Shown piece by piece: positions 1,537 through 25,039 of a stretch of DNA of 29,739 bases (within the stretch, counting starts at the first letter, position 1; every line of letters begins with the position of its first letter). The position numbers and the translations under genes were made by a program. Source of the DNA: a virus (taxonomy: Duplodnaviria; Heunggongvirae; Uroviricota; Caudoviricetes). The notes under the pieces are model-generated. The model made no database searches. It saw only the letters and a list, made by a program, of their open reading frames with translations, and was not told the DNA's origin. The stretch is taken from IMG/VR virus record IMGVR_UViG_2531839666_000033, positions 1 to 29,739 of that record. One strand, given 5' to 3'.

Positions 1537-1752
1537 ATGTACCAGATGGAAAAAATCACAACAGGTGTGTCATACACCACGTCAGCGGTGGGAACGGGCT
1601 ACTGGTTCCTGCAGTTGCTGGACAGGGTTTCCCCGTCTCAGTGGGCGGCAATAGGCGTGCTGGGGAGTCTGCTGTTTGGGCTGCTGACATATCTGACGAA
1701 CCTGTATTTCAAAATCAGAGAGGACCGGCGTAAGGCGGCACGGGGAGATTAG
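1537..1752 (+). CDS. S: class II holin, phage 21 S21-like pinholin with dual-start motif (Met1 and Met4)
   Basis: 71 aa; two TMDs (a Gly/Ala/Ser-rich SAR-like TMD1, then [23 protein letters not shown]) and a charged C-terminus [13 protein letters not shown], resembling S21 as I recall it; followed by a SAR endolysin. Confidence 0.85.
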
Positions 1753-1755
1753 GTG

Positions 1756-2124
1756 ATGAACCATGAAGAAATGAATCAGCGCTTCAGTCGTCTGGAAAAT
1801 GAAATTGCTGAACTGAATAAAAAACTGTCGGTGCTGATGCCTTCTGAAGATGAAAAAAAACGCCGCGATGAGCAGTTTGCTGCGTTTGACGATTATTGTC
1901 GGAAAGTGATGAGCAGAAATCTCGCAGAGTGTTTCAGTATTCATAATGATAATTTCAGTGAGCTGGAATGGGAGTGTAACCGGCCATCCTTTGTTGTATC
2001 CGGTGATGGTGTGAAAATAACCATCTCAGAAAATGGGAAAGTAACACCTCCATCGCACCAGCACAGTGAGGAGCTCATTGAATTTGCCATTGATTACCTG
2101 AAGAACAATAAAAACAGGGGCTGA
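1756..2124 (+). CDS. hypothetical protein inserted between holin and endolysin (N-terminal coiled-coil-like region)
   Basis: 123-aa ORF (ATG 1756, GTG 1753 possible) starting right after the holin stop; positionally analogous to ydfR-type genes between essQ and rrrQ in the K-12 Qin prophage, but sequence identity was not verified. Confidence 0.5.
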   Translation: MNHEEMNQRFSRLENEIAELNKKLSVLMPSEDEKKRRDEQFAAFDDYCRKVMSRNLAECFSIHNDNFSELEWECNRPSFVVSGDGVKITISENGKVTPPSHQHSEELIEFAIDYLKNNKNRG

Positions 2125-2312
2125 TGCAGCGCATTGGTCGTTGCATGGGGTATCTGCAGGTAGCCGCTGAGATTGAAGCGCTGGCCAGTGGTGCGGACAA
2201 GGATTCAGTTGTGCGGGAGGCACTTCTTCGTGATTTTGATAATCCGCCCTTTAAAAAAGTGCCGGCTTACTGGCTTCATCCCGGACTGACTTATCTGAAA
2301 GTGCGTATTTAG
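2124..2312 (+). CDS. hypothetical small protein (62 aa), translationally coupled to the upstream ORF
   Basis: ATG overlaps the upstream TGA (cTGATGc); AGGGG RBS at 2115-2119. Confidence 0.4.
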   Translation: MQRIGRCMGYLQVAAEIEALASGADKDSVVREALLRDFDNPPFKKVPAYWLHPGLTYLKVRI

Positions 2313-2348: not shown

Positions 2349-2882
2349 ATGAACACAAAAATCAAATACGGCCTGTCGGCTGCCGTTCTGGCGTTGATTG
2401 CCGCAGGGGCTTCTGCGCCTGAAATCCTCGACCAGTTTCTGGATGAAAAAGAAGGTAACCACACCACGGCATACCGTGATGGCGCGGGTATCTGGACCAT
2501 CTGCCGTGGAGCCACCCGGGTGGATGGTAAGCCTGTTATTCCTGGCATGAAGCTGTCGAAGGGGAAATGCGACCAGGTTAACGCCATTGAGCGTGATAAA
2601 GCGCTGGCATGGGTGGAGAAAAACATCAGAGTGCCACTGACTGAACCCCAGAAAGCGGGTATTGCGTCATTCTGTCCTTACAACATTGGCCCCGGTAAGT
2701 GTTTCCCGTCGACGTTTTATAAACGAATTAATGCAGGCGATCGCAGGGGAGCGTGTGAAGCGATTCGCTGGTGGATTAAGGACGGTGGCAGAGACTGCCG
2801 TATCCGCTCAAATAATTGTTATGGTCAGGTATCCCGTCGTGACCAGGAGAGCGCGCTGGCGTGCTGGGGTATCGACAGATAA
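2349..2882 (+). CDS. R: SAR endolysin (T4 lysozyme-type, GH24; phage 21 R21-like) with N-terminal signal-anchor-release domain
   Basis: Gly/Ala-rich N-terminal TM (GLSAAVLALIAAGASA) followed by an E...D...T catalytic motif (EGNHTTAYRDGAGIWTICRG), typical of SAR lysozymes. Confidence 0.9.
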   Translation: MNTKIKYGLSAAVLALIAAGASAPEILDQFLDEKEGNHTTAYRDGAGIWTICRGATRVDGKPVIPGMKLSKGKCDQVNAIERDKALAWVEKNIRVPLTEPQKAGIASFCPYNIGPGKCFPSTFYKRINAGDRRGACEAIRWWIKDGGRDCRIRSNNCYGQVSRRDQESALACWGIDR

Positions 2883-2976
2883 GCAGAATATTTTGCTGAA
2901 AAATGACGTTGACTAACGCGGACGGATAACACGAAATCCTGCGAACTGGCAAAACCTAAGTGAATAAAAGTAAAAA

Positions 2977-3010
2977 CCCCGTTTGTTGGCAGCAAGCGGG
3001 GTTTTGTGTT
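2977..3010 (+). terminator. Rho-independent terminator downstream of the endolysin
   Basis: 9-bp stem CCCCGTTTG/CAAGCGGGG (one G-U pair), 7-nt loop, then TTTTGTGTTTCT. Confidence 0.6.
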
Positions 3011-3243
3011 TCTGACCTTGGATAAGGCAAGGGAGAACATGGAAAAGTATAAACGAATTCTGTTGAGGTTGACTATGAAAAACGGCCTTGAACTGAAAGC
3101 GCCAGAGTAACTGATGACATCAGCAGAGCGCTGGCTTTTGCTATTAAGTGGGTGGCGGTTGGTATCGCTGTGTCTCCGATACTGTATGGGCTGGCAAAAC
3201 TGGTCATTGCGTTGAAATCGTAAACGGGGATTAAGAGGTAATC

Positions 3244-3375
3244 ATGTCACGCAAACTCATAATGCTGGGGGAAATCCTCTGGGTCATTGTCTGCATTTCA
3301 TTTTCAGCAACGCTGATTGCTCTTCTTCTTTCTATGGCATGGATGACGTTGAATTCGGCAGGGCTGGTGGGGTGA
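3244..3375 (+). CDS. small hydrophobic membrane peptide (43 aa) inserted between endolysin and Rz
   Basis: ORF MSRKLIMLGEILWVIVCISFSATLIALLLSMAWMTLNSAGLVG with RBS AAGAGG 6 nt upstream of the ATG; below the ORF-track cutoff, found by manual translation. Confidence 0.35.
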   Translation: MSRKLIMLGEILWVIVCISFSATLIALLLSMAWMTLNSAGLVG

Positions 3376-3382
3376 CAACGAT

Positions 3383-3876
3383 ATGAACCGGGCACTGTGT
3401 GGCGTGATTATTGTCCTGCTGGTGGCCTGTGGTGCGCTGTGGCTGGCAACAGACCATTACCGCGATAATGCCATCACCTACAAAGCGCAGCGCGATAAAA
3501 AGCCAGCGAGCTGGAGCTGGCAAACGCAACCATTACTGACATGCAGCAGCGCCAGCGTGATGTTGCTGCGCTGGATGAAAAATACACAAAGGAATTAGCC
3601 GATGCGAGAGCTGAAAATGAAACTCTGCGCGCTGATGTTGCCGCTGGTCGTAAGCGCCTGCGGATCAACGCCACCTGCTCCGGTACCGTGCGTGAATCCA
3701 CCGGCACCGCCCGCGTGGATAATGCAACCGGCCCCCGACTGGCAGACACCGCTGAACGGGATTATTTCATCCTCAGAGAACGGTTGATGACAATGCAGAA
3801 GCAGCTGGAAGGGGCGCAGGAATATATCCGCACTCAGTGCACTAAGCTGGCTTTTTATTATCCGGAGGATACATGA
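3383..3876 (+). pseudogene. Rz: i-spanin Rz, reading frame disrupted by a 1-nt deletion in an A-run (A5 at 3497-3501)
   Basis: N-terminal ORF 3383..3598 (MNRALCGVIIVLLVACGALWLATDHYRDNAITYKAQRDKK) and ORF 3541..3876 (…QQRQRDVAALDEKYTKELADARAENETLRADVAAGRKRLRI…) together match lambda Rz; the frames join if one A is added at gataaaaag. Confidence 0.8.
3602..3787 (+). CDS. Rz1: o-spanin Rz1 lipoprotein, embedded in the +1 frame of Rz
   Basis: MRELKMKLCALMLPLVVSACGSTPPAPVPCVNPPAPPAWIMQPAPDWQTPLNGIISSSENG: lipobox VVSAC, proline-rich, resembles lambda Rz1. Confidence 0.8.
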   Translation: MRELKMKLCALMLPLVVSACGSTPPAPVPCVNPPAPPAWIMQPAPDWQTPLNGIISSSENG

Positions 3877-4097
3877 AGAAATTACTGGTAACCGTAAAGC
3901 CTTTTCAGGGAACAATTCCGTTCCGTATTTTGCAGCGTGGTCGTGTTCTTGTTGAAGGTTCGTTCAGTGGTAAATGTACGCAATTACACTCCCGGACCTT
4001 TCAGGTGAATGCCACGAATGAAGAGCTAACCGTTGAGTGTACGATGAATGCCGCTAAATGCCGCATGGTATCGGCTGCATTACAGCCAGTGTGTTGA
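3873..4097 (+). CDS. hypothetical protein (74 aa), translationally coupled to the Rz stop
   Basis: GGAGG RBS 5 nt upstream of ATG 3873; ATGA overlap with the Rz stop; not Bor-like. Confidence 0.45.
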   Translation: MKKLLVTVKPFQGTIPFRILQRGRVLVEGSFSGKCTQLHSRTFQVNATNEELTVECTMNAAKCRMVSAALQPVC

Positions 4098-24636: not shown

Positions 24637-25039
24637 ACATCGCGCCCCGGGATTGCCGGAAGGAGACAAAAACCGTACAGTATGCGCGGGTGCCTTTGGC
24701 TGATGGCCGGAGGGAACACCTGAAGGCCGGAAAGACGAAGGCCCCGGACAAACATTCATGTTTAACCCGAGGCCTGACTTTCGATCTTCAGCAAATTGAA
24801 GGTTAGCGCCTCTCCGTAAAAGGAGCAAGCGTTTATGTCGCAAAACCGTTAAAAACCACCGTGATTTGTATCACGGTAGTGCTCATTATCTGGATCACCC
24901 ACAGTTCACTGTGCGAGTTCCGGTTCCGGATAGCGGGCGCGGAGATTGCGGCGTTCTTACAGTGTAAGCAGTAAGAAACCGTGGCGGGGGAGAATATCCC
25001 CCGCCGACCGGTTGCTGAGGGTGGTCAGCCGGATGGCAC

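What the first reader, a model, noticed from the sequence alone, without database searches (positions are those of the whole stretch)
1753..2312. Two extra ORFs inserted between pinholin and SAR endolysin
In phage 21 the holin is directly followed by the endolysin; here a 123-aa protein with a coiled-coil-like N-terminus and a translationally coupled 62-aa protein sit between them, so they should be co-expressed at lysis time. The position is analogous to ydfR between essQ and rrrQ in the K-12 Qin prophage (homology not verified). Candidate functions include lysis timing control, superinfection exclusion or another moron activity.
Basis: partly seen in the sequence, partly recalled or inferred. 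Interest (0 to 1): 0.5.

Follow-up and report, generated by a model that had tools for sequence, protein, structure and literature searches.

The report
One lysis-cassette gene split by frameshift
The "two extra genes" between the phage holin and endolysin are the two halves of one common, uncharacterised prophage gene, split in this sequence by a missing A in a run of six, most likely through a sequencing error or recent decay.

Summary
Both ORFs exist as described: 1753-2124 (123 aa from GTG, 122 aa from ATG 1756) and 2124-2312 (62 aa), between a phage-21-type holin and a lysozyme. They are not two coupled genes. Every relative examined encodes one continuous protein across the junction (...NNKKQGLMQRIGRC...). 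The closest E. coli genomes (98-99.5% identical DNA) have a single 185-aa CDS. The window has A5 (2110-2114) where they have A6. In an even sample of 60 of 777 E. coli genomes, 59 carry the extra base. The TGATG "coupling" overlap is the in-frame Leu-Met of the intact gene. The break cuts a single conserved domain that models confidently (pLDDT 80.6).

Seven other window genes (Rz and tail L, K, J among them) are also frame-broken, mostly by contraction of an A or T run. That points to assembly error or a decaying prophage.

The intact gene belongs to a catalogued family of unknown function (PHROG 1085; NCBI "hypothetical" or "YdfR family"), found in about 14% of complete E. coli genomes and in Salmonella prophages. 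Long forms fuse it to DUF1327 (YdfR), but the window's copy lacks that domain and shows no similarity to K-12 YdfR. No fold, Pfam, NCBIfam or PADLOC match was found. This is an ordinary finding of low interest.

The parts
1537..1752 (+). Class II (phage 21 S-type) holin, 71 aa. Upstream neighbour.
   Evidence: PF04971 E = 9e-33. 95.8% identical to the holin of L006.
1756..2124 (+). 5' part (122 codons plus a premature TGA) of the single accessory gene. It comprises a helical coiled-coil-like module (about residues 1-62) and the first half of the conserved C-terminal domain.
   Evidence: Matches residues 1-122 of the intact 185-aa protein at 97.5% identity in frame +1. phrog_1085 positions 117-233. 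Alignment A2.
2110..2114 (+). Frameshift site: an A5 run where intact relatives have one more base (A6, or AAAAAG).
   Evidence: Pairwise gaps against L006, sequence read and multiple alignment A1. 59 of 60 evenly sampled E. coli genomes have the extra base.
2124..2312 (+). 3' part (62 codons) of the same gene, now in frame +3. It is the most conserved segment of the family (GRCMGYLQVAAEIE...NPPFK...W..PG..YLK.R). Its ATG is the conserved internal Met of the intact protein.
   Evidence: Matches residues 120-185 of the intact protein at 98.5% identity in frame +3. phrog_1085 positions 235-296. Invariant columns in A3 and A4.
2349..2882 (+). Lysozyme-type endolysin with a hydrophobic N-terminus, 177 aa. 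Downstream neighbour.
   Evidence: PF00959 E = 3e-24. 97.7% identical to the lysozyme of L006.

Best explanation
Bases 1756-2312 are one gene, not two. It is a DUF1327-less, 185-aa-type member of a lambdoid-prophage accessory family (PHROG 1085; NCBI 'hypothetical protein' or 'YdfR family protein'). The gene sits in the late transcript between the pinholin and the endolysin. In this window, loss of one A from an A6 run (now A5, 2110-2114) shifts the frame, creates a TGA at 2122-2124 and leaves the last 62 codons as a separate ORF. That ORF starts at the gene's own conserved internal Met.

The break falls between two helices of a single conserved globular domain, so the two products are fragments and not evolved partners. 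Several other genes in the window are broken in the same way, so the split is most likely a homopolymer under-call in the assembly (about 0.65 of the probability). Otherwise it is a recent inactivating mutation in a decaying prophage (about 0.35).

The intact protein is predicted to be soluble and cytoplasmic, with a helical N-terminal module and a C-terminal domain of three strands and four helices. Its function is unknown. My best guess, by inference only, is a late-expressed accessory protein acting in the same pathway as the DUF1327/YdfR domain it is often fused to. K-12 YdfR binds the catalytic half of RNase E and co-purifies RNA. I do not think it is a core lysis component.
For: Shown:
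- tblastn of the intact 185-aa protein from L006 hits the window as two pieces: residues 1-122 in frame +1 (97.5%) and residues 120-185 in frame +3 (98.5%).
- The only indel in the gene is A5 versus A6 at about 2110 or versus AAAAAG.
- The closest genomes annotate one 185-aa CDS between a class II holin and a lysozyme.
- All 30 best E. coli hits, and 59 of 60 evenly sampled from 777 genomes, are one base longer than the window.
- One PHROG profile (phrog_1085, 296 positions) covers both ORFs contiguously, at 117-233 and 235-296.
- All E. coli and Salmonella relatives read through the junction, and the conserved core spans it.
- An AF2 model of the C-terminal 134 aa (mean pLDDT 80.6, pTM 0.71) places the junction between helix 50-66 and helix 72-93 of one domain.
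- Seven further window genes are split across frames, at A6->A5, T6->T5, two A5->A4 and AA->A sites. No independent nonsense mutation was seen; the three in-frame stops found all lie in short, low-identity HSPs beside frameshift sites.
- The identical A5 allele was found in only one other place: an IMG/VR contig 93% identical, with a different N-terminal module, that is itself full of homopolymer contractions including a broken holin. It was found in none of 185,579 species-representative genomes.
- There is no membrane segment (maximum Kyte-Doolittle 19-residue window 0.76).

Basis for the functional guess:
- The 287/296-aa forms place DUF1327 N-terminal to the whole 185-aa module.
- K-12 YdfR binds the RNase E N-terminal domain and RNA co-elutes with it (PMC13232886).
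Against: - Sequencing error and real mutation cannot be told apart without reads. Two of the window's indels (a G deletion at about 1415 and a T insertion at about 19897) and a 2-nt insertion at about 3104 are not in homopolymers.
- PHROGs holds separate families for a 122-aa product (phrog_36381) and a 62-aa product (phrog_26186), and a 62-aa stand-alone representative exists (P0122). The split form has therefore been deposited more than once. I did not establish whether those are errors, pseudogenes or real short genes.
- After the frameshift, termination-reinitiation at TGATG could still produce both fragments, and complementation between them is not excluded.
- The RNase E link rests only on domain fusion. 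The window's copy lacks DUF1327.
Confidence: 0.9

Rival explanations
1. These are two genuine, translationally coupled small genes (122/123 aa and 62 aa) that evolved as a pair and are co-expressed at lysis time.
For: The TGATG stop-start overlap is present. PHROGs has separate 122-aa and 62-aa families. A 62-aa stand-alone representative, P0122, exists.
Against: The two frames join into one ORF in 59 of 60 sampled E. coli genomes and in every phage and Salmonella relative aligned. The break lies inside one confidently modelled domain. The only other carrier of the exact allele is an error-ridden contig. The window has seven other frame-broken genes.
Confidence: 0.03
2. A programmed -1 ribosomal frameshift at U AAA AAC (2109-2115) makes a full-length fusion protein (N-N-K-N-Q-G-L-M...) alongside the 122-aa product.
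For: A -1 slip on AAA-AAC would restore the downstream frame exactly, and the run resembles known slippery heptamers. This rests on the sequence itself and on general knowledge of X XXY YYZ sites.
Against: The frameshift is not conserved, because relatives encode the fused frame directly. The P-site re-pairing would be to UAA, a mismatch at the first position. The downstream 89 nt fold no better than shuffles (z = 0.05). The same kind of indel breaks unrelated genes across the window.
Confidence: 0.03
3. The intact gene is a lysis regulator: a cytoplasmic antiholin cofactor or endolysin-timing factor that needs its position between S and R.
For: It sits between S and R in E. coli prophages, as ydfR does in Qin. 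There are no internal promoter-like or terminator-like sites, so it is expressed with the lysis genes.
Against: Most phages with this cassette lack it (13 of 366 phage records carry it). Salmonella homologues sit upstream of the holin, next to HicAB. It has no membrane segment. No similarity to any characterised lysis protein was found in Pfam, PHROGs annotated families, PDB or BFVD.
Confidence: 0.15
4. The intact gene is a moron for defence or superinfection exclusion, perhaps working with the convergent ~104-aa gene that follows it in many relatives.
For: It is mosaic, patchily distributed and found in moron-rich late regions next to HicAB in Salmonella. The conserved convergent partner ORF is 46% identical between E. 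coli and Salmonella.
Against: There is no PADLOC hit for any form or for the partner. The window lacks the partner. No own promoter was detected.
Confidence: 0.15

Closest known systems
Intact 185-aa 'hypothetical protein' of E. coli lambdoid prophages (e.g. WP_042969680, WP_044721862, WP_475695593; cluster representatives P0001, P0002)
   Same: 98-99.5% identical DNA and 97-98% identical protein. Same position between the class II holin and the lysozyme, with the same start context.
   Different: These are one uninterrupted ORF with A6 at the site where the window has A5.
PHROG 1085 / NCBI 'YdfR family protein', 287-296 aa (e.g. E. coli ATCC 25922 ORF; P0034) and the 268-aa Stx2-converting phage 86 gp05
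   Same: They share the C-terminal domain. The 287/296-aa forms also share the coiled-coil module. They occupy the same S-R slot.
   Different: They carry an N-terminal DUF1327 domain (E = 3.7e-45 for gp05) that the window's gene lacks. gp05 also lacks the coiled-coil module and is followed by a convergent 104-aa ORF.
K-12 Qin YdfR (P76160, 103 aa, DUF1327)
   Same: Same slot between holin (essQ) and lysozyme (rrrQ). Homologous to residues 1-74 of the long forms (46% identity, E = 7e-21).
   Different: No detectable similarity to the window's gene. YdfR consists only of the module the window lacks. Its reported RNase E and RNA binding (PMC13232886) therefore cannot be transferred directly.
Salmonella enterica prophage homologues (P0124, P0129, P0160 and others, 240-330 aa)
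   Same: They share the C-terminal domain, with invariant G-R, P-x-K, W, P-G and Y positions, read through as one ORF.
   Different: Only about 30-40% identical. Their N-terminal modules differ. They are located between Q/HicAB and the holin, not between holin and endolysin.

Membership tests
PHROG 1085 / 185-aa lambdoid accessory protein family | Sequence match over the coiled-coil module and the C-terminal domain | tested here: met
   phrog_1085 E = 3e-61 (first ORF) and 3.5e-41 (second ORF), at contiguous profile positions 117-233 and 235-296. 97.5% and 98.5% identity to the intact protein.
PHROG 1085 / 185-aa lambdoid accessory protein family | Single uninterrupted reading frame through ...NNKKQGLM(K/Q)RIGRC... 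| tested here: not met
   The window has a 1-nt deletion (A5 versus A6) at 2110-2114, giving a premature TGA at 2122-2124. The window copy is a disrupted member.
YdfR / DUF1327 (PF07041) | Presence of the DUF1327 domain | tested here: not met
   No PF07041 hit for either window ORF or for the intact 185-aa form at E <= 0.1-1. BLASTP against K-12 YdfR finds no alignment. Stx2-86 gp05 served as a positive control, E = 3.7e-45.
YdfR / DUF1327 (PF07041) | Position between holin and endolysin of a lambdoid lysis cassette | tested here: met
   Window order is holin, gene, lysozyme. K-12 order is essQ, ydfR, rrrQ.
Translationally coupled two-gene module | Stop-start overlap conserved among relatives as two separate ORFs | tested here: not met
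   The overlap exists only in the window and in one error-rich contig. 59 of 60 sampled genomes and all aligned relatives have one ORF.
Programmed -1 frameshift site | Conserved slippery heptamer plus a downstream stimulatory structure | tested here: not met
   The site is not conserved. The downstream fold has z = 0.05 against shuffles.
Holin/antiholin or other membrane lysis protein | At least one transmembrane segment or signal sequence | tested here: not met
   Maximum Kyte-Doolittle 19-residue hydropathy is 0.76. No holin, spanin or lysis family hit.
Known anti-phage defence proteins (PADLOC-DB 2.0) | HMM match to a catalogued defence component | tested here: not met
   No hit at E <= 0.1 for the 185-, 213-, 161- or 268-aa forms, or for the convergent 104-aa partner.

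The most novel reading that the evidence does not exclude
The intact gene's C-terminal domain of about 110 aa has no Pfam model and no detectable structural relative in PDB or BFVD. It could be a new effector or adaptor domain that works with the RNase E-binding DUF1327/YdfR module, to which it is fused in most E. coli copies, to re-tune host RNA decay late in lambdoid infection. In the window's DUF1327-less form it would act alone or through its coiled coil. The frameshifted copy itself would still be non-functional or an artefact.
Probability: 0.15. Interest if true: 0.5.

Novelty: already known. Interest (0 to 1): 0.12.

Why it matters
As written, the finding would have added a new two-gene module to the pinholin/SAR-endolysin cassette. 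It does not. It is a broken copy of a gene already present and annotated, as hypothetical or YdfR family, in hundreds of E. coli genomes.

The practical lessons are these:
- The window carries many homopolymer-type frameshifts. Other "short coupled ORFs" or "split genes" seen in it, including Rz and tail genes L, K and J, should be read the same way.
- The S-R junction of lambdoid prophages is a mosaic slot. It holds shuffled modules: DUF1327, a coiled coil and an uncharacterised conserved C-terminal domain.
- That C-terminal domain occurs in about one in seven complete E. coli genomes and in Salmonella prophages. It still has no assigned function or fold relative, and that is the only part worth experimental follow-up.

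Tried and rejected
- **Family scans.** Pfam, NCBIfam and PADLOC scans of both ORFs, the intact 185-aa form and three variant forms gave only sub-threshold noise (Relaxase_C, HLH, DegQ and similar).
- **AF2, full length.** The full 185-aa protein with a shallow E. coli-only alignment gave a poor model (pLDDT 53), which I did not use for fold search.
- **PDB profile search.** The best E-value was 0.11.
- **Programmed frameshift.** No downstream structure and no conservation, so rejected.
- **Locating the source.** Exact-match scans found no identical contig.
- **Species-representative genomes.** Only three loci were found, all Escherichia or Shigella.
- **Literature.** Nothing was found on this gene. 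The hits concerned K-12 YdfR (PMC13232886) and an unrelated phage lysis-timing protein (PMC11657625).
- **Nonsense mutations as a sign of natural decay.** The three in-frame stops found all lie in short, low-identity HSPs next to frameshift sites. I did not count them as independent nonsense mutations.

Full report
**1. Observation**

- 1537-1752 encodes a 71-aa protein that matches PF04971 'Bacteriophage P21 holin S' (E = 9e-33).
- 1753-2124 is a 123-aa ORF from GTG. An ATG at 1756 gives 122 aa.
- 2124-2312 is a 62-aa ORF whose ATG overlaps the preceding TGA by one base.
- 2349-2882 is a 177-aa PF00959 lysozyme.

The two small ORFs are in different frames, +1 and +3. No promoter-like or terminator-like site lies between the holin and the endolysin. 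Among sequenced phages an insert at this place is uncommon. Of 366 phage records matching the cassette, 13 match bases 1753-2312. The physical description is therefore right.

**2. The two ORFs are one gene**

- **PHROGs.** The first clue was that one 296-position profile, phrog_1085, matches the first ORF at positions 117-233 and the second at 235-296.
- **Phage relatives.** Annotated Stx phages have a single CDS in this slot: 213 aa in Stx2_12E129, 268 aa in Stx2-converting phage 86 and 161 aa in Stx2_499. The first two read straight through ...NNKKQGLMKRIGRCMGYLQ.... Stx2_499 shares only the N-terminal module.
- **DNA alignment.** The window lacks one base there: AATAAAAA-CAGGGG versus AATAAAAAGCAGGGG. 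Against the window's best overall match (E. coli CFIAFB20190157, locus L006) the difference is A5 versus A6. In window coordinates the run is 2110-2114.
- **tblastn.** The intact 185-aa protein of L006 hits the window as residues 1-122 in frame +1 (97.5%) and residues 120-185 in frame +3 (98.5%).
- **RefSeq annotation.** The closest genomes annotate one 185-aa 'hypothetical protein' between 'class II holin family protein' and 'lysozyme'.
- **Population sample.** All 30 best E. coli genome hits are one base longer than the query. In an even sample of 60 from the 777 genomes that carry the 3' two-thirds of the gene, 59 are one base longer. The remaining one (SD134209) is itself annotated as frameshifted.

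The 'translational coupling' signal TGATG is simply the in-frame CTG ATG (Leu-Met) of the intact gene read after the shift.

**3. The break cuts a single domain**

A profile search of 1.84 billion representative proteins found only 42 relatives. Together with a second word-index search, these show an E. coli branch and a Salmonella enterica prophage branch.

Aligning both branches shows that the conserved core is the last ~110 residues. It has a short strand region, then an H-x-x-(I/L)I-x-x-AI helix, then (M/L)KR(I/L)GRCMG(Y/L)LQVAAEIE...NPPFK...W..PG..YLK.R. Invariant G-R, P-x-K, W, P and Y positions all lie in the part encoded by the window's 62-aa ORF.

With this more diverse alignment, AlphaFold2 gives a confident model of the C-terminal 134 residues (mean pLDDT 80.6, pTM 0.71). 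It has three strands and four helices. The frameshift junction falls in the short loop between helix 50-66 and helix 72-93. The two window products are therefore fragments of one fold.

**4. Why it is split: error or decay**

The window is the late region of a lambdoid prophage: nanS-p-like esterase, DUF1378, DUF826, the lysis genes, lambda-like head and tail genes through J, hok/sok, and a tail fibre gene. It is about 96-97% identical to prophages in many E. coli genomes.

Besides this gene, seven others are split across frames relative to intact relatives. They are the DUF6645 esterase, DUF826, Rz, and tail genes L, K and J, plus a small ORF between R and Rz. An eighth indel lies at the 5' edge of the hok match. 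Outside the finding's own A6->A5, the indel contexts are:

| Position | Gene or region | Change |
|---|---|---|
| ~679 | DUF6645 esterase | AA->A |
| ~1415 | DUF826 | single G deletion |
| ~3104 | small ORF between R and Rz | 2-nt insertion |
| ~3497 | Rz | A6->A5 |
| ~18821 | tail L | T6->T5 |
| ~19897 | tail K | single T insertion |
| ~23858 | J | A5->A4 |
| ~24842 | 5' edge of the hok match | A5->A4 |

(Sources.)

I saw no independent nonsense mutation, IS element or large deletion. A scan for the exact A5 allele found nothing in 185,579 species-representative genomes. It found one IMG/VR contig. That contig is only 93% identical and has a different, DUF1327-bearing N-terminal module. It is itself full of G- and A-run contractions, including a broken holin. 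So the same under-count has arisen independently at this A6 run in an evidently error-prone assembly.

I therefore favour a sequencing or assembly artefact (about 0.65) over a genuine recent inactivating mutation (about 0.35). Only the reads can decide. Either way the two-ORF arrangement is not an evolved feature.

**5. Programmed frameshifting was considered**

A -1 slip on U-AAA-AAC would restore the downstream frame. I reject this reading for four reasons:
- Relatives encode the fusion directly, so the site is not conserved.
- The P-site re-pairing would be mismatched at the first position.
- The 89 nt downstream fold no better than shuffled sequence (z = 0.05).
- The same kind of indel breaks unrelated genes across the window.

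**6. What the intact gene is**

It is a mosaic accessory gene of the lambdoid late region.
- **Forms.** E. coli forms of 185, 209-221, 268 and 287-296 aa combine three modules: an optional N-terminal DUF1327 domain, a helical 'MNHEEMNQRFSRLENEIAELNKK' coiled-coil-like module, and the conserved C-terminal domain.
- **Module shuffling.** The coiled-coil module also occurs with other partners. Examples are the 161-aa Stx2_499 protein and P0132, whose N-terminus is 48% identical to the window ORF at 3873-4097.
- **Commonest form.** In complete E. coli genomes, 639 of the 777 best matches fall in the 90-95% identity band, where sampled members such as ATCC 25922 lie. ATCC 25922 carries the 296-aa DUF1327-bearing form as an intact ORF, although PGAP annotates only a partial YdfR pseudogene there.
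- **Physical properties.** The protein has no hydrophobic segment (maximum 19-residue hydropathy 0.76) and is mildly acidic (pI 5.8).
- **No known relatives.** There is no Pfam, NCBIfam or PADLOC match, no PDB sequence relative and no significant fold match in PDB or BFVD.
- **Variable position.** In Salmonella the homologues lie between the Q antiterminator/HicAB and the holin, not between holin and endolysin. The S-R position is therefore not obligatory.
- **Partner ORF.** Many relatives are followed by a convergent ~104-aa ORF that is 46% identical between E. coli and Salmonella. The window lacks it.

**7. Relation to ydfR**

K-12 Qin has essQ-ydfR-rrrQ. K-12 YdfR (103 aa) is homologous to residues 1-74 of the 296-aa long form (E = 7e-21). 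It has no similarity to the 185-aa form carried by the window. The window's gene corresponds to the part of 'YdfR family proteins' that K-12 YdfR lacks.

A 2026 study reports that K-12 YdfR binds the catalytic N-terminal half of RNase E in two-hybrid and co-purification assays, and that RNA co-elutes with it (PMC13232886). By domain-fusion logic the C-terminal domain may act in the same pathway. That is inference only, and I give it about 0.15-0.25.

**8. Mechanism**

Shown: one gene, co-oriented with the late lysis genes and without its own signals, broken by a 1-nt loss inside a single domain.

Inferred: in intact copies, a soluble late-expressed accessory protein, possibly oligomeric through its N-terminal helices. 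It may be functionally linked to DUF1327 and RNase E. Alternatively it is a lysis-timing or defence moron. In this window the product is either an artefact of sequencing or a truncated 122-aa fragment. Reinitiation at the overlapping ATG might add some 62-aa fragment, and both are expected to be non-functional.

**9. Verdict**

The central claim of two coupled ORFs is wrong. The feature is a disrupted copy of an already catalogued family of unknown function. Novelty: already known. Interest is low, at 0.12. The residual interest lies in the uncharacterised C-terminal domain of the intact family, not in this window.

Noticed in passing
window ~679, ~1415, ~3104, ~3497, ~18821, ~19897, ~23858, ~24842: Eight further frame-breaking indels relative to intact relatives. 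They affect the DUF6645/SASA esterase, DUF826, a small ORF between R and Rz, Rz, tail L, tail K, J and the 5' edge of the hok match. Five of the eight are contractions of A or T runs, and no independent nonsense mutation was seen. This suggests a homopolymer-error-prone assembly or a decaying prophage.
   Followed up: partly
window 3383-3598 and 3499-3876 (Rz); 3602-3787 (Rz1): The Rz spanin gene is split by an A6->A5 change at about 3497, while the embedded Rz1 lipoprotein ORF (61 aa) is intact.
   Followed up: partly
window 2883-3380: The spacer of about 500 bp between endolysin and Rz holds a strong terminator-like hairpin (2973-3005, 15 pairs followed by a T-rich tail) inside the late operon. 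It also holds small hydrophobic ORFs. One is a 60-aa ORF that is intact in IMG/VR contig L007 but split in the window by a 2-nt insertion. Another is a 43-aa ORF at 3244-3375.
   Followed up: partly
window 24688-24971: A hok/sok-type toxin-antitoxin locus lies between J and the tail-fibre gene (Rfam sok RF01794, 63.2 bits, at 24688-24837; Hok match at 24843-24971). A one-base contraction of an A run sits at about 24842, at the 5' edge of the Hok match.
   Followed up: no
L003 2571-2885 (-), L001 2515-2829 (-), L015 3807-4124 (-): Many relatives of the finding's gene are followed by a convergent ORF of about 104 aa with no family match. It is 46% identical between E. coli and Salmonella prophages, which suggests a conserved two-gene cassette. 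The window lacks this partner.
   Followed up: partly
L008 1964-2854 (E. coli ATCC 25922): RefSeq/PGAP annotates only 1964-2299 as a partial 'YdfR family protein' pseudogene and leaves the rest unannotated, yet the full 296-aa ORF is intact. Many E. coli genome hits likewise list no annotated feature under the match.
   Followed up: partly
window 3873-4097: A 74-aa ORF downstream of Rz is 48% identical to the N-terminus of P0132. That protein is fused to the same coiled-coil module that begins the finding's gene. This is further evidence of module shuffling among late-region accessory genes.
   Followed up: partly
L013, L015 (Salmonella enterica prophages): Salmonella homologues of the C-terminal domain sit between the Q antiterminator plus a HicAB toxin-antitoxin pair and an HP1-type holin. 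This is the classic Q-S moron region, not the S-R junction.
   Followed up: partly
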